The notes beneath the pieces are model-generated. The model ran no database searches and was not told the origin of the DNA. It saw nothing but the letters and a program-made list of their open reading frames with translations. This document shows positions 7,561-24,396 of a DNA stretch of 64,000 nt, piece by piece. The DNA is taken from IMG/VR virus record IMGVR_UViG_3300030376_004503, positions 7,895-71,894 of that record; one strand, written 5' to 3'. Origin of the DNA: a virus. Lineage: Duplodnaviria; Caudoviricetes. The position numbers were made by a program, and so were the translations under genes. The stretch's first letter is position 1. Each line of letters begins with the position of its first letter.

Positions 7561-7633
7561 AACGCTTGAACGAGGTTTTATTACTAACCCTGATGTTAGA
7601 GCAGTGTCTATTAAGCAATAGATAGGAGCAAAA

Positions 7634-7990
7634 ATGTTAAACAAAACAGAGCAAAAACAACTAGAAGCAAAAGTTGGTTCGCTCGATTTACTTCCTGCGC
7701 ATTTACAGCAGGAACTAATCGCAGCATTCTACAAAGTGCTTCAAGTAGAAAAAGAAAAGAAACGCATAGAGCAGAAATATTCTACCTATGCTGGAACACC
7801 AGATACGCCGGACAGGAAAATAGAGCGTTATAGAATGCACAAAGCAATGCATTACGGTTTGTTGCCGGGCGTTGTGTGTTCGTGCTTCCGTGACGACACC
7901 GCAGCTACGCCGTGTGCATATGTGCCGGCTAAAAATATTGGCCCAATGCGGCAACATTACGCAGAGCACGGTATTTGGTGGAAAATATGA
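7634..7990 (+). CDS. Hypothetical protein
   Basis: ORF track; AGGAG SD at 7624-7628. Confidence 0.7.
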   Translation: MLNKTEQKQLEAKVGSLDLLPAHLQQELIAAFYKVLQVEKEKKRIEQKYSTYAGTPDTPDRKIERYRMHKAMHYGLLPGVVCSCFRDDTAATPCAYVPAKNIGPMRQHYAEHGIWWKI

Positions 7991-8370
7991 AGCAAGATAA
8001 TCAGGAAGCAGCAATGCCTCCAGCACAAATACTTGCTGAGCTAAATAATTATATGTCACGGCTTAAAGGGTCACGGCCAATGCTTAATGTATATCCAGCA
8101 GATAAGAAAATAAGCAAGTCACTCCGAGAAAATGCAGCAATCTGGTTTTCTAAGAGTCCAGCGATGATTACACACATTGACATTGATAACTTTTTACGGC
8201 AATTCTTTGAGGCACTTGCTGACAAGGATGTTAATCACGAAGCAATTATGACTGACGTAAAGAAGCACGCAGGTATGGGTTACAACAGCGGTGGTGTGCA
8301 CGGCAAGAATGAATACAGCAAAGACAAGAGTCGTGTAGACGGCAGAATGATACAGAGGAAGCGAAGATGA
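7987..8370 (+). CDS. Hypothetical protein
   Basis: ORF track 7975..8370; likely ATGA-overlap start at 7987. Confidence 0.7.
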   Translation: MKQDNQEAAMPPAQILAELNNYMSRLKGSRPMLNVYPADKKISKSLRENAAIWFSKSPAMITHIDIDNFLRQFFEALADKDVNHEAIMTDVKKHAGMGYNSGGVHGKNEYSKDKSRVDGRMIQRKRR

Positions 8371-8516
8371 TACCAAGCAATGAAGAAACATTTAGTATAG
8401 ACTTATTCCCCGGCAACATATATGCAATGGTTGACGGCAAGTTATGGACTGCGCCGTTGTATCAAGACGGCACTGTTGATGACGAGCAATGGGGAGAAGT
8501 AATAGAGCTAATTTAA
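8367..8516 (+). CDS. Hypothetical protein, 49 aa
   Basis: Manual ORF MIPSNEETFSIDLFPG...GEVIELI with ATGA overlap. Confidence 0.6.
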   Translation: MIPSNEETFSIDLFPGNIYAMVDGKLWTAPLYQDGTVDDEQWGEVIELI

Positions 8517-8521
8517 TTAAT

Positions 8522-8605
8522 GAACGCCGATAGGGATGAAGTGGTCGACAAAGCGGGTCTTGTTTTGCCCGTGCTCCTACGTCCGCTTTATTCCCGGCAA
8601 TGTTC
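8522..8605 (+). ncRNA. Structured RNA motif, copy 1 (outer stem, CUCCU internal loop, GCGGG hairpin with CUUGUUUU loop)
   Basis: GGGAUGAAGUGG/CCGCUUUAUUCCC outer stem and GCGGGU/GCCCGU inner stem; several G-U pairs favour the + strand; similar to 14417-14487. Confidence 0.55.
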
Positions 8606-8628
8606 GCTCAAAATACGCTGGTGTGAGT

Positions 8629-8640
8629 CTTTATATATAA
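8629..8640 (+). promoter_or_regulatory. TATA promoter of the Zn-ribbon/peptidase operon
   Basis: cTTTATATATAA upstream of the ATG at 8684. Confidence 0.65.
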
Positions 8641-8683
8641 CCAAAGACCTAAAGCAACAGTGCGAGAGCAAAGAGGAAATGTA

Positions 8684-10408
8684 ATGACAATAGAAACAGC
8701 AGAATGTGATGTATGTGGCGCTGAAGAGCAGTCAACCGACATCGAATCTACAGCAGCTTATGAGTGTGTTTGCTCAGGTTGTCGTGAGGAGATGTGGTCT
8801 TGTAACGACTGCTCAGATGAGTTCACAGCATCAGATGACCAATTCGATACGCCGAATGGCACTATATGTCACGACTGCCGTCACGGTGATGATTATTGTG
8901 ACTGTGACAATTGCGGCGAGGTTATCGCACTACAAAATGGTGACTATTACAACGACCAAGAATACAGCGGTGAGATTGTTTGCTACAATTGTGGAGACAC
9001 ATCTTGCACTGATTGCCGTGAGTGTGGTACTGACATAGATTTCTACGAAGTAGGCAGCGACCACTATTATGACGGCAGATGTGAAGAATGTTACAACAGA
9101 AATGACCAAAGTATTTGTGCTGCCACTAATTCAATGTCACGCAGCGTGACTAATATACTTACAGCAAATTCATACTCACCATTATCGGGTCACGATTATA
9201 TGTTGCTTTCCCGATATTACAATCACGCTTTAGATGATTACGAGCATAACAGGTATGTTATAAACAAAAATGCACTCGGTCCTCGCTTCAATACTGATAA
9301 GGGCGAATCTTGGTGGAATGGTCAAATCAAGCTGACGAGTCCTGTCTACAAACGCACAGCAGCAATGTTGTGCGATATGATGAAATTAGATTTATTCTTA
9401 GACCAGCATAAAAAGTATGGTCTATATCACCCATTACGGCATATTTTTAGAGGTTGCCTGAAATATTATCACCGAAGCAATGGTGAATATATAGATGGCT
9501 GTGAAGTTAGTATGGAAACGCTAGGTCAACACTACTTTGACTATGCTTTAGAACAAACTAATAAAGAAAAAATTATTAGAATGCTGAAAGATAACAAGAC
9601 TGATGACGGAGCAGACCTTAAGAGAGCACTCAATCAAGTCTTTTCCAGAGCATATCGACTTAAATTCCCACAATATACAGGAAGGACAAATGGCCGCACT
9701 GAGTGGGCAGATTATTTCCAACAATATCAAACTAATGTAGTAAGCAAGTTAGTCGATGTCCAAATTGGCTTCGATGTATCAACGTTATGGGAAAATTTCC
9801 AAGCAGGTGAAGCACTGCGTAGTTGTCAGACGCCAAGTAACAGCACTGCATATGGTTTCGGTGCTGCCGATATGATGACTAACCCACATTTGCTTGCTAT
9901 ACTGCGTGACGAACACGGCACTCTTATTGGCCGTGCAGTCATCAGACTATTCAAAGAGCAGTGGGATGACGAGCATCCTATGTGTATTGCTCCATCCAGA
10001 ATATACTTATCACAGCATTCAAATGTAAAGAATGAAGTGTATGTTGGACTATTCGAAGCACTAAATGATTGGGCAACCTCAACATTTACTGAAGGCTTCC
10101 ACTTACTTGCTTACCGTCATTCAAGACACGACAGCAGTATATTTAGTTTTATTAGATACTCAGAAAAATTCAGCAGAGATACTACTACAACACGACCAAG
10201 ACTTTACACGCTGGATTGGGTTCCATTTTGGGAGACCAAACCTGACAACAGTGAAGCGACATTTACTTATTATCAAGACGAGGACCAACGACTCAAGCTC
10301 AGCAATGTGCGTAGAGACGCAGAGGCTCCTCCATTCGTTCAATACTCAGCACGTGAGTATATAAGCGGAGAAGAATATTACATAATCGAGGTAGAAAACA
10401 ATGACTAA
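8684..10408 (+). CDS. Protein with poly-CxxC Zn-ribbon N-terminus and an uncharacterised (possibly GNAT-like) C-terminal domain
   Basis: At least 8 CxxC pairs in the first ~150 aa; C-terminal RSCQ...NPHLLAILRDEHGTLIGRAVIRLF...APSRIY; ORF track 8660, likely ATG 8684. Confidence 0.7.
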   Translation: MTIETAECDVCGAEEQSTDIESTAAYECVCSGCREEMWSCNDCSDEFTASDDQFDTPNGTICHDCRHGDDYCDCDNCGEVIALQNGDYYNDQEYSGEIVCYNCGDTSCTDCRECGTDIDFYEVGSDHYYDGRCEECYNRNDQSICAATNSMSRSVTNILTANSYSPLSGHDYMLLSRYYNHALDDYEHNRYVINKNALGPRFNTDKGESWWNGQIKLTSPVYKRTAAMLCDMMKLDLFLDQHKKYGLYHPLRHIFRGCLKYYHRSNGEYIDGCEVSMETLGQHYFDYALEQTNKEKIIRMLKDNKTDDGADLKRALNQVFSRAYRLKFPQYTGRTNGRTEWADYFQQYQTNVVSKLVDVQIGFDVSTLWENFQAGEALRSCQTPSNSTAYGFGAADMMTNPHLLAILRDEHGTLIGRAVIRLFKEQWDDEHPMCIAPSRIYLSQHSNVKNEVYVGLFEALNDWATSTFTEGFHLLAYRHSRHDSSIFSFIRYSEKFSRDTTTTRPRLYTLDWVPFWETKPDNSEATFTYYQDEDQRLKLSNVRRDAEAPPFVQYSAREYISGEEYYIIEVENND

Positions 10409-11702
10409 GAAAGAAAGCAATAAAACAGTTGCAGAAAAGCAACAAGCTAGTAAGTCAGTTGTTACCAAAATACCAGAAAATATGACAGCAATGAGTGATG
10501 TAGATTTACTCGGCTCTATGTTTTCTATTTTCAGCCCAAGCGGAGACGAACACGCTATGATTGCATACGTGACGCAATATCTCCGTGATGCTGAGATAGA
10601 ATACGAGATAGATACTGCCGGTAATATCTACTTCACAAACCACGTTGAGGGTAATCAACGTATTTTGCTGAATGCGCATATGGACACAGTAGGCAGTGCT
10701 GCTCCCGACATTCTTGTCGAGTTCCAGCCTAATGTCGGAACTGTGTTGCGCTCAACAAACAATCAGGTAATTGGTGGCGATGACAAGTGCGGTGTATTTG
10801 CTGTGTTGAAGACAATCAACAACAAAGCAATAGACATACCACTCAGCGGACTTCTGACCGTATCAGAAGAAACAGGATGCAACGGTGCTCGACACGCAAT
10901 GGAACATCACAGCGACAAGTTCAGTGATATTATATTCAATATTACCATTGACAGGAACGGCAACACCGACATCATCACACAAAATAGTGACTACAAATTG
11001 TGCTCCGATGATATGGACACACAACTTGGTGAGTGGGGTAAAGCATTTGGTCTCAAAACGTGCAACGGTTCAATATCCGATGTCAGCGAGATTGTATCAA
11101 CCCTTGACATCAACGGTATCAACTTGTTTGCTGGTTATTACAATGCACATACAGGCAACGAATATGTAGTTATGGAGCATTTACAACGTTCACTCGGATT
11201 TATGCAGCATATACTACCGTTATTACTTAACTATTTTACAGAACATCCAGAGCAAATCAAATTTGAACCAACTCGTGCAGTATATTCTTGGGCAGGTGCT
11301 TATTCTTACGAATCATATGGCGGCGTCAAGTATTATGGCACACAATCAAGTGGTTGGACTAAAGCAGATGGGTCAGATGAAGATAAACTCATTAAGTTTT
11401 ACGATATGCTTGACCGTATTGAGGGCGAAGAGGGACAATATTCAGGTCTTGATAGACTTGCCGAAGACGAAGAGATACGAGTCAGCAGTTCAGGTAAGTC
11501 CATTGTCATACCTAATGGTTTTGTTGCTTACTTTGTAGAGTGCGACATACTCGAAGATTATGTGCCGATTTTACAAAACAATTATGATGCTATAGTTAGT
11601 ATGGATGACATACAAACATATCTTGACCGCTGGAAAGTTCTTAATGATGACAGTGATTTTTATGATTACGACAGCACAGATGGAGGTTATTACGTTGCCT
11701 AA
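10401..11702 (+). CDS. M20/M28-family Zn metallopeptidase
   Basis: Metal-ligand motifs NAHMDTV, GGDDKCG, SEETG, IDR, YNAHT are all present; no signal peptide. Confidence 0.88.
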   Translation: MTKKESNKTVAEKQQASKSVVTKIPENMTAMSDVDLLGSMFSIFSPSGDEHAMIAYVTQYLRDAEIEYEIDTAGNIYFTNHVEGNQRILLNAHMDTVGSAAPDILVEFQPNVGTVLRSTNNQVIGGDDKCGVFAVLKTINNKAIDIPLSGLLTVSEETGCNGARHAMEHHSDKFSDIIFNITIDRNGNTDIITQNSDYKLCSDDMDTQLGEWGKAFGLKTCNGSISDVSEIVSTLDINGINLFAGYYNAHTGNEYVVMEHLQRSLGFMQHILPLLLNYFTEHPEQIKFEPTRAVYSWAGAYSYESYGGVKYYGTQSSGWTKADGSDEDKLIKFYDMLDRIEGEEGQYSGLDRLAEDEEIRVSSSGKSIVIPNGFVAYFVECDILEDYVPILQNNYDAIVSMDDIQTYLDRWKVLNDDSDFYDYDSTDGGYYVA

Positions 11703-12045
11703 GAAACACGGCGCAAATGTTAAAGTAACTTGCCCTGAATGTAAAGAAGCATCAGAAGGTAAACTAAGGTTTAGAGCAGAGAATAAAAACTCTTTTGATG
11801 CATATCATTGTTCGCTGTGTCAGAATGAATGGGACCCAAGCGAAGTTATTACTGAAGAGTATAAGATTGCTCGGTTTAGGGGTCGTGATGGTGAATGGAA
11901 ATTCGTGTCGCATAGTGAAAGCAACACACGAAAGATGAGAGAAAACACAAATATGTGGAACCCCAGAGCGTTAAAGAGAGATAGAAATTCTGTAGGTAGA
12001 TGGAGCAAAAGGGATGCAAATCTATTAAAGAGGTTGAGAAAGTGA
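11695..12045 (+). CDS. Zn-ribbon protein
   Basis: GGAGGT SD then TTG at 11695; CPEC...CSLC; basic C-terminus. Confidence 0.7.
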   Translation: MPKKHGANVKVTCPECKEASEGKLRFRAENKNSFDAYHCSLCQNEWDPSEVITEEYKIARFRGRDGEWKFVSHSESNTRKMRENTNMWNPRALKRDRNSVGRWSKRDANLLKRLRK

Positions 12046-12221
12046 GACGCCGGAAAAAAGTGTCAGAGATTGACAAAGACCTTATCAGAGCATATTACGA
12101 TGACAGTAAATATTGGCGGAAACGTCTGCTGAAGAATAAAAATCCGAGAGGAACAGGACACAGCACTTACAAAGAACTAAAAAAGAAAGGAGAGCAAGAT
12201 GCAGATATACAGACTGAATAA
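12000..12221 (+). CDS. Small basic hypothetical protein
   Basis: ORF track; real start probably near 12042. Confidence 0.5.
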   Translation: MEQKGCKSIKEVEKVRRRKKVSEIDKDLIRAYYDDSKYWRKRLLKNKNPRGTGHSTYKELKKKGEQDADIQTE

Positions 12222-12972
12222 AGAAATGATGGCTTCGATGGACACAATGACCGACTTAATTGTCGGCGACAGTGACGAGACACACCCAACCCTATCGTTC
12301 GCTCTAAGAGAATGGCGTGATAGGTACACAAGATACGACTTAATGAAGAGCGTTCATCAGATAGGTCGTGCTATGTATGACTCGCTGAAAAGTAACCACT
12401 TTCAACAAGCACACGGGTTCGGTATATTGTATCGTAAGAAGGGTAACAATTATGTGTGGCGTGGTAAACACGTTCCACCACAGCTTGTTACGAGGTTAAA
12501 GAATGGCTTTGACGAAATTACAGGTGACATTATGTTATACAAACGGGGAGCATCAACACGCAAGAATGAAGAGCATTTTCCTATCAGATTATCTGACGGC
12601 CGTTATGCCTTTGTGTTAGGTGCTACTCAACATATAATTATAGAAGCATACAACAGACACGGAATTAGTTTGTCCAGCGAAGAGTATGACCTTGTGTTTA
12701 ACTTGTGGGCTCAAGAGCATTTATTAGATTACGATAGATTACCACCAGCAAGAATGACTAACCCATTCAAGAATAGAGCGCAATTAGTGTGGTTGATGGA
12801 GAACTACATTAATGATAATGATTATGGCAGCGCATATGATGACCACAGAAGTGATGTTGGTCCACGTGCTGCATACTGCGTATGGGAAAATGGTAACACA
12901 ATCCGTTGGGTAAACGCTGGGATAGATGTGCATCCAAAGGTTACAGGTAGACCAGACCCACCTGAAGCATAA
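12199..12972 (+). CDS. Hypothetical protein
   Basis: ORF track, 257 aa; AGGAG SD. Confidence 0.75.
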   Translation: MQIYRLNKEMMASMDTMTDLIVGDSDETHPTLSFALREWRDRYTRYDLMKSVHQIGRAMYDSLKSNHFQQAHGFGILYRKKGNNYVWRGKHVPPQLVTRLKNGFDEITGDIMLYKRGASTRKNEEHFPIRLSDGRYAFVLGATQHIIIEAYNRHGISLSSEEYDLVFNLWAQEHLLDYDRLPPARMTNPFKNRAQLVWLMENYINDNDYGSAYDDHRSDVGPRAAYCVWENGNTIRWVNAGIDVHPKVTGRPDPPEA

Positions 12973-12981
12973 GATTTAAAT

Positions 12982-13251
12982 ATGAAAGAATACAGTATAA
13001 ATGATATGAACGAAGCAGAAAAAAAACTATTTGCGTTGTTTGTGGCTGAGTTGATGAAGAATAATATCATCACAGATGATGACTTGCTGGACTTTAGTTC
13101 AGACGACATCGGAGAATATGTCAAAGAAGACAGAAGCGGTATGATAGAGGTTGGTCCTGTGACTTACGACCCACGTAAGGCTGACCCACCGAGTGTCATA
13201 AGAGAAAATGTATTGGAGAAAAAGAATGAGCGAAAAAGAGAAAAAGACTAA
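12982..13251 (+). CDS. Hypothetical protein
   Basis: ORF track. Confidence 0.65.
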   Translation: MKEYSINDMNEAEKKLFALFVAELMKNNIITDDDLLDFSSDDIGEYVKEDRSGMIEVGPVTYDPRKADPPSVIRENVLEKKNERKREKD

Positions 13252-13540
13252 GAAAGTAAACATAAACAATACTGCACAGTTTATAGATGCAGTTTGTGAA
13301 GCAATAAAGAACAAGGACTATGACGTTCTTGAAAACTTGCCTGACCTATGTGGTTGTGGATGTAAGCAGGATATGATAGATTCTATTACTATTAATGAGA
13401 AATTAGATACTATATGCGACCCTGAACCACTCAGCGGGTATACATTATTAGATGAGATTGAGTTTACATTATATTCAGCACAATCAGAACTGAATAGATT
13501 ACAAAAGTTAATCTTTAAATATAGGGACAACAATAAATAA
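13226..13540 (+). CDS. Hypothetical protein
   Basis: ORF track 13208..13540; likely ATG 13226 after GGAG. Confidence 0.65.
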   Translation: MSEKEKKTKKVNINNTAQFIDAVCEAIKNKDYDVLENLPDLCGCGCKQDMIDSITINEKLDTICDPEPLSGYTLLDEIEFTLYSAQSELNRLQKLIFKYRDNNK

Positions 13541-13665
13541 GATTATGTCAGCAGATTATAGTGACGAACCATCGTGCACACGGCGAGGAACAGGTTGGAT
13601 AGACTTTTCTACTTTGAAAAGAAAACCTAAAAAGCGTGTGAAAATAAAAAAGAGGAAATATAAAA

Positions 13666-13749
13666 ATGAAATGCGTAAGATGTAAGAATCAATACATAGG
13701 AATGAAGCAACACCACACGTTTAACTGCCCTCATTGTGGAGATAAATAA
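13666..13749 (+). CDS. 27-aa CPxCG-type Zn-finger microprotein
   Basis: Manual ORF MKCVRCKNQYIGMKQHHTFNCPHCGDK with GAGG SD. Confidence 0.65.
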   Translation: MKCVRCKNQYIGMKQHHTFNCPHCGDK

Positions 13750-13861
13750 TGGTAAAACATATAGATTATTGGAAGCATAGAGGACACGTTATCCCACGAC
13801 ATATCAAAGAAGCATATGAAACGATAGCAGAGTGGGAGAAAGCGCAAGGGTATATGAATAA

Positions 13862-14056
13862 ATGATTAAACAGAGAGAATGTAGTGCTTGTGAGAAAGAC
13901 TTTACTTCTTATGGTGGCGTTATTTACTGTGATAGCTGTAGATGGGATTTACATTACAGTAGGAATTGGTATAAACGAGATTACACTAAAGAAGAGTGGA
14001 TGAACGAGCAGAGAAGACACAGAGTAATAGGGTATAGAGGAAGATTTATTGAATGA
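13862..14056 (+). CDS. Zn-finger protein
   Basis: CSAC...CDSC. Confidence 0.65.
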   Translation: MIKQRECSACEKDFTSYGGVIYCDSCRWDLHYSRNWYKRDYTKEEWMNEQRRHRVIGYRGRFIE

Positions 14057-14379
14057 AAAAGAAAATTGGACTTCAAAAAATTATAGATGAAATGCAATTT
14101 TTTAAGCTCCCGTTATGGGAAGTGAAACGAAAGGAAAGAAAAAAAATGACAAAAGCAAAAAATATAGAATATAAAAATGGAATGAAGTTTAGTTGTGGAC
14201 CACCGAGAGTTTCCGGCGGTTATGAGAAATGGAATTGGTGTAAAAAATGTGACGCTATTTATGACAAAAGCCATAAGATGTGTAAAGATTGTAGACAATG
14301 TTTGAGACAATCCGCAAGAAGTAATAACAATTGGTATACTGCTGATGGAACTAAAAGAACTAAAGGAGATACACGCTGA
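14053..14379 (+). CDS. Zn-finger protein
   Basis: WCKKC...CKDCRQC. Confidence 0.6.
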   Translation: MKKKIGLQKIIDEMQFFKLPLWEVKRKERKKMTKAKNIEYKNGMKFSCGPPRVSGGYEKWNWCKKCDAIYDKSHKMCKDCRQCLRQSARSNNNWYTADGTKRTKGDTR

Positions 14380-14384
14380 TAATA

Positions 14385-14396
14385 ACCTTTATATAC
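14385..14396 (+). promoter_or_regulatory. Archaeal BRE/TATA promoter
   Basis: aaccTTTATATA. Confidence 0.7.
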
Positions 14397-14416
14397 ATTA
14401 TTGGTAATGAATCTAA

Positions 14417-14487
14417 CCGGAATAAGCACAACTGCGGGTTTTATACTTGTTTTCCCCGCTTCTCCTGTGCTTGTTCCAACCGGAGAA
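14417..14487 (+). ncRNA. Structured RNA motif, copy 2 (5' leader of the 14491 gene)
   Basis: GGAAUAAGCACA/UGUGCUUGUUCC 12-bp stem; GCGGG/CCCGC inner stem; CUUGUUUU in the loop; UUCUCC complementary to the SD GGAGAA. Confidence 0.6.
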
Positions 14488-14490
14488 TAT

Positions 14491-14841
14491 ATGACAGAAG
14501 AAATGAATGAAATAGAAGAAGAAGAAATCTTTGATGAAGAAGCTGAAGATTTATTCGATATGGCAAATGAAGAAGCAGATAATGTAGTAATTAAGAGAGA
14601 ATTAAAATATGCTACATTCGAGTATGATGAGACTGAGAAAACTATTACGATAGAAACTAAGTCTGATTCAATACCTGACCAAAATATACACGAAACAGAT
14701 GAGCAATATAAAGAGAGACTTGCTGTTCACGAACCTGCAATTAATGGTAGGATTAAATTGAATAAAGTTTATAGTTTTGCATTGTTGAGATTTGTTATAA
14801 GAATTGCACAGCGCAATTGGTTTAGGAAAGTAAAGAAATAA
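14491..14841 (+). CDS. Hypothetical protein with acidic N-terminus
   Basis: ORF track 14401..14841; likely ATG 14491 after GGAG. Confidence 0.7.
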   Translation: MTEEMNEIEEEEIFDEEAEDLFDMANEEADNVVIKRELKYATFEYDETEKTITIETKSDSIPDQNIHETDEQYKERLAVHEPAINGRIKLNKVYSFALLRFVIRIAQRNWFRKVKK

Positions 14842-14944
14842 TGCCATTAAGTCGGAGACATATAATGTTATTAGCTTTTGTCCATTTTATAATGAGATTT
14901 ATGGACAAAATATATGAGGGCGAGGATAAATGGGGTGATGCGCC

Positions 14945-15133
14945 GTGGCTAGATATACAGTAGAGTTAGACCAAGAAGATGTAGAATGCTTACCAATGAT
15001 AAGAATGGGTATGCAGCAGACAGAGAATCGTGAGTGGGACCTAGTATGTGACATATTACAGCAGATTGAAGACCAAGAGTTCCAACACCTAATAGATAGA
15101 ATGAATAAACAGCGAGGGATGACTAAAGAATGA
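14945..15133 (+). CDS. Hypothetical protein
   Basis: ORF track; GGTGA SD. Confidence 0.6.
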   Translation: MARYTVELDQEDVECLPMIRMGMQQTENREWDLVCDILQQIEDQEFQHLIDRMNKQRGMTKE

Positions 15134-24198: not shown

Positions 24199-24396
24199 AT
24201 GATGGAAACAGAGAATGATAAAAAGTTAGCATCTTTTTTAAAAGATGAAGAAGTAAAAGTGGTTTGGAAAGAAGACGACAAGACAAAGGTAGGAAGAGGA
24301 AAGATAATGAACGATGATGATAATTTTATATATCTTACCGGAACTAAAGGTACAGTTATAGTCAGTAAAACTGATGTTATAGCTATCAAACAGTGA
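24199..24396 (+). CDS. Sm/Lsm/Hfq-like small protein
   Basis: 65 aa; V.V......G.I...D.NFI.L......V.K..V..I fits the Sm1/Sm2 spacing of Hfq/Lsm. Confidence 0.55.
   Translation: MMETENDKKLASFLKDEEVKVVWKEDDKTKVGRGKIMNDDDNFIYLTGTKGTVIVSKTDVIAIKQ

What the first reader, a model, noticed from the sequence alone, without database searches (positions are those of the whole stretch)
8522..14487. Two dispersed copies of an unrecognised structured RNA motif with a CUUGUUUU loop and anti-SD CUCCU
Seen: copy 1 (8533-8595) is GGGAUGAAGUGG..GCGGGU-CUUGUUUU-GCCCGU-G-CUCCU..CCGCUUUAUUCCC. Copy 2 (14419-14477) is GGAAUAAGCACA..GCGGGUUUUAUA-CUUGUUUU-CCCCGC-UU-CUCCU-GUGCUUGUUCC. The architecture is the same and stem sequences differ but still pair, including G-U pairs that favour the + strand. 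Two motifs are invariant: CUUGUUUU and CUCCU. Established: CUCCU is the anti-SD at the 16S 3' end, and Sm/Lsm/Hfq rings bind U-rich single strands. The virus encodes an Sm-like protein (24199) and aIF-1A (20820). Inference: a virus-encoded translational switch made of an RNA element, an Lsm protein and an initiation factor. I know no family that matches it.
Basis: partly seen in the sequence, partly recalled or inferred. Interest (0 to 1): 0.82.

Follow-up and report, generated by a model that had tools for sequence, protein, structure and literature searches.

The report
Viral small RNA with tRNA-intron ends
An uncultured marine archaeal virus carries a conserved, previously undescribed small structured RNA whose ends form the cut-and-rejoin signal of archaeal tRNA introns and whose exposed loops match the ribosome-binding region of a viral gene, so the virus probably uses the host's tRNA-splicing enzymes to make a regulatory RNA.

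Summary
Both copies exist as described and fold far better than shuffles. No Rfam family or tRNA matches. The two "invariant" motifs hold only within this genome and its close kin.

Copy 1 (8533-8595) has orthologs at the same place in at least 8 lineages of related viral contigs. Across 14 elements, 94% of cells are paired and 21 of 26 pairs show compensatory changes.

Its flanks form an archaeal bulge-helix-bulge (BHB) motif: a 4-bp helix (8526-29/8595-98) between two 3-nt bulges. This is the substrate shape of the tRNA-splicing endonuclease, and it predicts a roughly 69-nt, probably circular, RNA.

The two unpaired segments of copy 1 complement the Shine-Dalgarno region and early codons of gene 7634, the first gene of the operon that ends just before it. 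This match co-varies in relatives and ranks first of 165 gene starts here.

Copy 2 (14419-14477) is a paralog without a BHB, sitting at a predicted transcription start. The neighbouring Sm/Hfq-like protein and aIF-1A are real, but no link to the RNA is shown.

No RNA data exist, so cleavage, circularity and regulation are inferred. The scan has noted BHB introns inside genes of other archaeal viruses. It has not noted an intergenic small RNA like this one.

The parts
8522..8525 (+). Outer helix h, 5' strand (pairs with 8602-8605)
   Evidence: Read from the sequence. The closing pair next to the 3' bulge is kept in 14 of 14 elements with four pair types. The helix is only 1-5 bp long in relatives.
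8526..8529 (+). Central 4-bp helix H of the BHB motif, 5' strand (pairs with 8595-8598)
   Evidence: 56 of 56 cells paired in 14 elements. At least five co-varying versions occur: GCCG/CGGC, GCUG/CAGC, GCGG/CCGC, GUGG/CCAC, GUCG/CGAC.
8530..8532 (+). 5' three-nucleotide bulge (AUA); predicted 5' cleavage site
   Evidence: Always 3 nt (AUA, AAA or ACA) in all 14 elements. The cleavage position is inferred from the tRNA-intron BHB.
8533..8594 (+). Copy 1 body: 12-bp stem h' (8533-44/8583-94), inner hairpin (8553-58/8567-72, loop 8559-66), unpaired 3' strand 8573-79
   Evidence: Fold. Stem h' is 97% paired, and 12 of its 15 pairs show compensatory changes.
8559..8566 (+). Hairpin loop; 8560-66 complements 7654-60
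   Evidence: In G003 the match is 8 nt; in L204 a different loop matches +13 of the ortholog.
8572..8579 (+). Unpaired 3' strand with CUCCU; exact complement of 7623-30
   Evidence: duplex -13.0 kcal/mol. It co-varies with the target in G003 and L204.
8595..8598 (+). Central helix H, 3' strand
   Evidence: Same evidence as for 8526-8529.
8599..8601 (+). 3' three-nucleotide bulge (AAU); predicted 3' cleavage site
   Evidence: AAA in 13 elements and AAU in 1 of the 14.
8602..8605 (+). Outer helix h, 3' strand
7623..7660 (+). Proposed target: ribosome-binding region and codons 1-9 of gene 7634-7990
   Evidence: Rank 1 of 165 ORF starts for complementarity to the copy-1 apical region. 0 of 268 control start regions score as high.
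8633..8640 (+). TATA box of the downstream 574-aa gene (start 8684)
   Evidence: A conserved T-rich TATA-like box lies 15-40 nt after the element in nearly all orthologs. Promoter function is inferred.
14390..14397 (+). TATA box predicted to start transcription at the foot of copy 2
   Evidence: the same box sits at 21-22 nt spacing in G003. The start site is inferred from the usual archaeal spacing.
14419..14477 (+). Copy 2: 12-bp stem (14419-30/14466-77), hairpin 14434-38/14455-59 with loop 14439-54, unpaired 14460-65; no BHB
   Evidence: The G003 ortholog has the same stem and a roughly 60-nt insertion.
14482..14493 (+). Shine-Dalgarno GGAG and ATG of gene 14491, complementary to 14460-65
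   Evidence: duplex -8.7 kcal/mol.
24199..24396 (+). Sm/Hfq-fold protein, a candidate RNA chaperone (link to the RNA not shown)
   Evidence: 91% identical copy in G003.

Best explanation
Copy 1 is a member of an undescribed family of small structured RNAs of marine archaeal tailed viruses. It is transcribed at the 3' end of the operon 7634-8516.

Its flanks fold into a bulge-helix-bulge motif, the signal that the archaeal tRNA-splicing endonuclease cuts. The host enzyme is therefore predicted to excise a roughly 69-nt RNA (about 8532-8600), which the tRNA ligase would circularise.

The RNA is a long stem that presents two unpaired segments. These pair with the Shine-Dalgarno region and early codons of gene 7634, so the RNA most likely controls translation of that gene. 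It could act by fold-back within the same transcript before excision, or in trans after excision.

Copy 2 is a paralog that keeps the same two seed segments but has no BHB. It is made by transcription from its own TATA box, as the 5' leader of gene 14491 or as a separate RNA. The virus's Hfq-like protein is a plausible helper.

Shown: structure, conservation, covariation, BHB geometry and target complementarity. Inferred: cleavage, circularity, direction of regulation and the protein partner.
For: Structure and covariation: 14 elements, 93.9% paired, 21 of 26 pairs with double changes, 0 of 500 shuffles as high, slid controls 37-46%.

BHB: the central helix is 100% paired in at least 5 co-varying versions. 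Both bulges are always 3 nt. The closing pair of the outer helix is kept in 14 of 14 elements. This geometry matches the published definition of a 4-bp helix between two 3-nt bulges (PMC7714728).

Not coding: predicted excised lengths of 64-107 nt (69 and 71 nt in the two closest lineages) shift the frame, and the spliced frame stops at once in L027.

Target: 8-nt and 7-nt exact complements lie at -11 and +20 of gene 7634, rank 1 of 165 starts here and rank 2 of 143 in G003. Different sequences match the orthologous gene in L204, L218 and L212. A U-to-G change in the G003 mRNA is matched by A-to-C in the element. Duplex energies are -13 to -16 kcal/mol.

The matching segments are the unpaired ones in the fold. 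Sm/Hfq-fold protein.
Against: No RNA data: no listed run holding this stretch is on record as RNA.

The outer helix of the BHB is short, 1-5 bp. Strict endonucleases may not accept that, and the host and its enzyme type are unknown.

The target match is weak in L206. No clear target was found in lineages that lack the 7634 ortholog.

Start regions are purine-rich and the loops are U-rich, which raises chance matches. In G003, 6 of 268 control start regions and 103 of 2000 shuffles score as high.

Copy 2 does not single out gene 7634.

The element always lies 15-40 nt upstream of the next promoter, so a role at the 3' end of transcripts or at the DNA level is not excluded.
Confidence: 0.55

Rival explanations
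1. The elements are only stable 3'-end or 5'-end hairpins that protect or terminate viral transcripts. On this reading the BHB-like flanks are not cut, and the matches to gene 7634 are chance between U-rich loops and purine-rich start regions.
For: Copy 1 orthologs always lie at the end of a transcription unit, 15-40 nt before the next TATA box. Copy 2 sits at a predicted 5' end. The loops contain U-runs, which are archaeal termination signals (own knowledge). The target statistics are modest in G003, L218 and L206.
Against: A plain protective hairpin does not explain three things: a 4-bp helix with two exactly 3-nt A-rich segments kept through five compensatory versions, rank 1 of 165 and rank 2 of 143 for the same orthologous gene, and the matched change in G003.
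Confidence: 0.17
2. One reading: the RNA displays a copy of the 16S anti-SD, binds the viral Sm-like ring through its U-rich loop, and acts with viral aIF-1A as a general switch of translation initiation.
For: CUCC is present in most elements. About a third of the viral genes have GGAG/GAGG upstream, against 5.5% background. The Sm/Hfq fold of the 24199 protein and aIF-1A are real.
Against: CUCCU and the loop motif are not conserved. They are absent in L206/L212 and in the G003 ortholog of copy 2. Where present they extend into a longer, gene-specific complement that co-varies. No evidence links aIF-1A to the RNA.
Confidence: 0.08
3. A selfish, intron-like BHB element, a relic of a mobile archaeal intron, carried passively in an intergenic spacer near tRNA genes.
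For: BHB introns occur at many sites and are thought to move (PMC4090602). In relatives the element abuts tRNA-Glu or precedes tRNA-Lys. Second-site elements exist in L208 and L219. The scan noted BHB introns in other archaeal virus genes.
Against: The element holds the same locus across neighbour-protein identities of 32-95%, with purifying selection on a structure that lies in a spacer where removal is not needed. It carries no homing-endonuclease ORF.
Confidence: 0.08
4. A DNA-level element, such as a cruciform or operator, that controls the promoter of the 574-aa gene.
For: Constant position 15-40 bp upstream of the conserved TATA box.
Against: G-U pairs make the structure strand-specific: three in copy 1, and the - strand folds worse. 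Many GC-to-GU changes occur. Copy 2 lies downstream of its promoter.
Confidence: 0.05
5. Copy 1 is part of a small protein gene (ORF 8520-8684), and copy 2 is the N-terminus of ORF 14401-14841.
For: Open frames run through both copies. Gene callers called such small ORFs in some relatives.
Against: Orthologs differ by indels that are not multiples of three, and conservation is at nucleotide and base-pair level, not at peptide level. The ATG at 14407 lies only 10 nt after the TATA box.
Confidence: 0.02

Closest known systems
BHB intron in the 5' UTR of Haloferax volcanii HVO_1309, and the cbf5 pre-mRNA intron of Crenarchaeota (PMC7714728; PMC2738675)
   Same: A bulge-helix-bulge motif outside tRNA and rRNA, in an mRNA-type transcript. 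Excision gives a small circular RNA. The function is thought to be regulatory.
   Different: Those are cellular and single-locus. This is a virus-encoded family at the end of an operon or next to viral tRNA genes. It has a long conserved inner stem, seed-like loops and a co-varying mRNA target. Its outer helix is much shorter.
Processing stems of archaeal 16S/23S rRNA and BHB-excised circular RNAs (PMC7714728, PMC10351888)
   Same: A long helix formed by the two ends of a functional RNA, with a BHB at its base. The product is excised and circularised.
   Different: The product here is about 65-107 nt rather than an rRNA, and the gene is viral.
3'-UTR-derived, Hfq-dependent antisense sRNAs of bacteria (own knowledge: CpxQ, SroC type)
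   Same: The RNA is released from the 3' end of an mRNA by a host endonuclease. Unpaired seeds pair with ribosome-binding regions. An Sm-fold protein is encoded nearby.
   Different: The organism is an archaeal virus. Release is predicted through the tRNA-splicing endonuclease, not RNase E. The target is the first gene of the same operon. Hfq dependence is untested.
tRNA-linked small RNAs of murine gammaherpesvirus 68 (own knowledge: tRNA-miRNA chimeras cut by tRNase Z)
   Same: A virus uses host tRNA-processing enzymes to mature a non-tRNA small RNA placed next to a tRNA. In relatives L206, L212 and L213 the element starts 2 nt after tRNA-Glu CCA.
   Different: Different domain of life, different enzyme and different product.

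Membership tests
Archaeal bulge-helix-bulge (BHB) splicing motif | Central helix of exactly 4 base pairs | tested here: met
   8526-29 with 8595-98. 56 of 56 cells paired in 14 elements, with at least 5 compensatory versions.
Archaeal bulge-helix-bulge (BHB) splicing motif | Two 3-nt bulges on opposite strands, each 3' of its strand of the central helix | tested here: met
   8530-32 and 8599-8601. Both are 3 nt in all 14 elements. The polarity matches the tRNA 37/38 intron (derivation from own knowledge).
Archaeal bulge-helix-bulge (BHB) splicing motif | Flanking helices h and h' on both sides (strict hBHBh') | tested here: inconclusive
   h' is 10-17 bp. h is only 1-5 bp (5 bp with a G-U pair here), although its closing pair is kept in 14 of 14 elements with covariation. 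Short h resembles relaxed motifs, which only some endonuclease types cut (PMC6379350).
Archaeal bulge-helix-bulge (BHB) splicing motif | Cleavage by the splicing endonuclease and ligation of the products | not testable with these tools
   No listed run holding this stretch is on record as RNA.
Any Rfam family | Score at or near the family's gathering threshold | tested here: not met
   No match at gathering scores in the whole window. At E up to 10 in 8000-15000 there were only two unrelated weak hits elsewhere.
tRNA or tRNA intron | Cloverleaf in the exons or in the element | tested here: not met
   ARAGORN finds no tRNA in the window. By inspection, the joined exons lack D and T arms and U33.
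Antisense sRNA acting on a translation start region (works like) | Unpaired seeds complementary to an SD/start region, with the complementarity kept in relatives by co-variation | tested here: met
   It holds in the clade that has the 7634 ortholog. It is weak or absent in other lineages.
Sm/Lsm/Hfq proteins (gene 24199) | Sm fold: N-terminal helix plus a five-stranded bent sheet | tested here: met
   AF2 pLDDT 87 with one helix and 5 strands. Top PDB matches are Hfq and M. jannaschii Hfq-like protein, TM 0.6-0.78, E 0.03-0.1.
Sm/Lsm/Hfq proteins (gene 24199) | Sequence match to a curated Sm/Hfq model | tested here: not met
   No Pfam or PHROG hit. Three of 19 homologs touch RNase P p29, itself an Sm-like fold, only at E 0.11.

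The most novel reading that the evidence does not exclude
An archaeal virus uses the host tRNA-splicing endonuclease and ligase to cut a circular antisense RNA out of the tail of its own operon. This RNA, helped by a virus-encoded Hfq-like ring, shuts off or times translation of the operon's first gene. That would be a complete virus-borne sRNA-chaperone circuit in Archaea, matured by tRNA enzymes.
Probability: 0.3. Interest if true: 0.88.

Novelty: new variant of a known kind. Interest (0 to 1): 0.76.

Why it matters
BHB motifs outside tRNA and rRNA are very rare. The literature held here names one cellular mRNA intron and one 5' UTR intron (PMC7714728).

I found no report of a virus-encoded small-RNA family bounded by a BHB. 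I also found none for an archaeal virus sRNA with a co-varying target.

If the prediction holds, three things follow:
- Archaeal viruses exploit host tRNA-splicing enzymes to make regulatory, probably circular, RNAs.
- The elements give a natural, compact scaffold for circular RNA production.
- The very abundant viral Hfq-like protein family gets a testable RNA partner.

The work also gives a covariance model (R2) to annotate these elements in marine viromes.

Tried and rejected
- **Motif scans.** Exact-motif scans of viral contigs and metagenome contigs gave, apart from G001/G002/G003 and L157, only chance matches without the stems.
- **Cellular genomes.** A 19-nt pattern of the BHB plus stem scanned over the cellular genome collection gave 54 chance hits and no true element. 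The host therefore stays unidentified.
- **aIF-1A.** Back-translated aIF-1A found no cellular relative.
- **Host identity.** PolB against GenBank phages gave only 20-23% matches. Whether this is a magrovirus was not verified.
- **RNA evidence.** No RNA holder is listed. Contigs of four runs show no joint at the BHB.
- **Loose BHB descriptor.** It gives 95 chance hits in the window, so the motif alone is not significant without conservation.
- **Whole-length duplex folding.** Run against all start regions, it was too permissive to rank targets and was replaced by exact-complement coverage.
- **Families rejected by inspection.** tRNA, a split or permuted tRNA, H/ACA, C/D box, a k-turn and a riboswitch were considered and rejected: no boxes, no G-A pairs after the bulge, variable junctions.
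- **574-aa neighbour.** It gave only a weak GNAT-like fold match, with no clear link to the RNA.
Full report
**The observation**

The window is bases 7895-71894 of a 71.9-kb virus record that CheckV rates complete. It uses TATA-type promoters and encodes aIF-1A, so its host is an archaeon.

- Copy 1 (8533-8595) folds at -28.4 kcal/mol (z = -4.6). Copy 2 (14419-14477) folds at -23.9 kcal/mol (z = -6.5). No shuffle out of 200 folds as well.
- The + strand is favoured, and copy 1 has three G-U pairs.
- The joint motifs occur twice, against about 0.02 or fewer expected.
- Rfam has no match and ARAGORN finds no tRNA.

**Relatives**

The 574-aa gene just downstream of copy 1 has homologs at 32-95% identity in viral and metagenome contigs. 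Every contig that reaches upstream of that gene carries an ortholog of copy 1.

The orthologs differ by indels that break any reading frame, and their predicted excised lengths range from 64 to 107 nt. The small ORF 8520-8684 is therefore not a conserved gene.

I aligned 14 elements to covariance model R2 and counted pairs (a 10-sequence set gave the same picture):
- 93.9% of cells are paired.
- 21 of 26 pairs show changes on both sides.
- No shuffle out of 500 reaches the observed values.
- Structures slid by 1-3 columns pair at only 37-46%.

**The flanks are a bulge-helix-bulge motif**

The 12 nt before and 9 nt after the stem are more conserved than the stem itself. They fold as follows:
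- helix h: 8522-25 with 8602-05
- central helix H: 8526-29 with 8595-98
- a 3-nt bulge at 8530-32
- a 3-nt bulge at 8599-8601
- the long stem as h'

H is paired in 56 of 56 cells and occurs in at least five compensatory versions. Both bulges are always 3 nt. The base pair closing the 3' bulge is kept in 14 of 14 elements with four pair types.

This is the published definition of the substrate of the archaeal splicing endonuclease (PMC7714728). Each strand reads helix, H, bulge, helix, as in the tRNA 37/38 intron (my derivation).

The weak point is helix h, which is only 1-5 bp. That resembles relaxed motifs, which only some enzyme types cut (PMC6379350), and the host is unknown. A loose BHB descriptor alone hits 95 places in the window, so the case rests on conservation.

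By analogy, cleavage would release about 8532-8600 (69 nt), and the tRNA ligase would circularise it.

**Context**

- In three lineages the element begins 2 nt after the CCA of a viral tRNA-Glu. In others a tRNA-Lys follows it. The window itself has no tRNA.
- A conserved TATA box for the 574-aa gene follows the element by 15-40 nt.
- Some relatives have a second BHB element elsewhere: L208 8546-8657, and L219 5258-5365. In the L219 element the outer helix includes the Shine-Dalgarno sequence of the next gene.
- Copy 2 of the window has no BHB. It starts 21 nt after a TATA box, at the predicted transcription start. G003 has its ortholog, with the same stem, a roughly 60-nt insertion, the same loop and no CUCCU.
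- No further copy exists in the rest of G000 or G003.

**A target**

8572-79 is the exact complement of 7623-30, the ribosome-binding region of the gene. Loop bases 8560-66 complement 7654-60. I confirmed both. These are exactly the unpaired segments of the fold.

Gene 7634 is the first gene of the operon that ends 16 nt before the element. Evidence that the match is more than chance:
- Among 165 ORF starts of the genome, gene 7634 ranks first for complementarity. The G003 ortholog ranks second of 143.
- In G003 a U-to-G change in the mRNA is matched by A-to-C in the RNA, and the loop match grows to 8 nt.
- In L204 (45% protein identity), quite different segments match -14 and +13 of the orthologous gene. 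In L218 and L212 the loop matches the start codon region.
- The number of 268 control start regions that score as high is 0 (G000), 2 (L212), 4 (L204), 6 (G003), 12 (L218) and 65 (L206).
- Duplex energies for the SD match are -13 to -16 kcal/mol.

Lineages without this ortholog give no clear target.

Copy 2 keeps the same two seeds in shorter form. It could pair with gene 7634 or with its own Shine-Dalgarno sequence at 14482-87, but it does not single out gene 7634.

**Proteins**

- The 65-aa product of 24199 has no Pfam hit. Its model (pLDDT 87) matches Hfq and archaeal Hfq-like proteins best. The family is very abundant in marine data and is present in G003.
- aIF-1A is confirmed.
- The 574-aa neighbour has zinc ribbons and a weak GNAT-like fold.
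- About a third of genes have GGAG/GAGG upstream, so Shine-Dalgarno pairing matters in this system.

**Reading**

The best-supported model is a virus-encoded small RNA that is matured by the host tRNA-splicing enzymes and acts by antisense pairing on the start region of gene 7634. Copy 2 would be a promoter-driven paralog.

Whether excision relieves a fold-back within the transcript, or instead creates a trans-acting repressor, cannot be told from sequence.

No RNA data exist for this virus. Rivals are listed separately.

The literature held here knows BHB motifs outside tRNA and rRNA only in cbf5 mRNA and one haloarchaeal 5' UTR (PMC7714728). I found none for viral small RNAs. The scan itself has noted BHB introns inside genes of other archaeal viruses.

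Noticed in passing
L206:1654-1813; L212:5602-5763; L213:766-920; L208:8546-8747; L027:2893-2970: In relatives the BHB element is physically tied to viral tRNA genes. tRNA-Glu(CTC) ends 2 nt before the central helix in three lineages. tRNA-Lys(CTT) lies 12 nt (L208) or about 120 nt (G003/L027) downstream. The window's own genome has lost these tRNAs.
   Followed up: partly
L219:5258-5365, L220:5813-5920, L208:8546-8657: Second-site BHB elements exist in other lineages. In L219 and L220 the outer helix pairs with the GGAG of the next gene, so excision could change access to that ribosome-binding site.
   Followed up: partly
window 24199-24396: The 65-aa Sm/Hfq-fold protein belongs to a very large, highly conserved marine family: 337 clusters at 70-95% identity. 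JGI labels some members RNase P/MRP subunit p29, but Pfam support for that is only E 0.11.
   Followed up: partly
window 8684-10408: The 574-aa protein always found downstream of the element has about 140 aa of zinc ribbons, then a domain whose model (pLDDT 82) weakly resembles GNAT N-acetyltransferases such as NatD (E 1e-3, TM 0.18/0.44). It overlaps (is translationally coupled with) an M20/M28/M42-like peptidase gene.
   Followed up: partly
window 7634-7990: The proposed target gene encodes a 118-aa protein with a conserved Cys motif and no Pfam family. Orthologs occur in five lineages at 33-61% identity.
   Followed up: partly
window 8629-8644 and orthologous sites: The promoter-like box GTCTTTATATA is conserved at nucleotide level across lineages whose proteins are only 35-60% identical.
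   Followed up: no
window 8647-8696: One metagenome contig (run X18) replaces these 48 bases by 174 other bases. This is probably the tRNA-bearing variant seen in L027.
   Followed up: no
whole window: GGAG or GAGG lies within 20 nt upstream of 23 of 65 crude ORF starts, against 5.5% of random 18-mers. This points to a host that uses Shine-Dalgarno initiation.
   Followed up: partly
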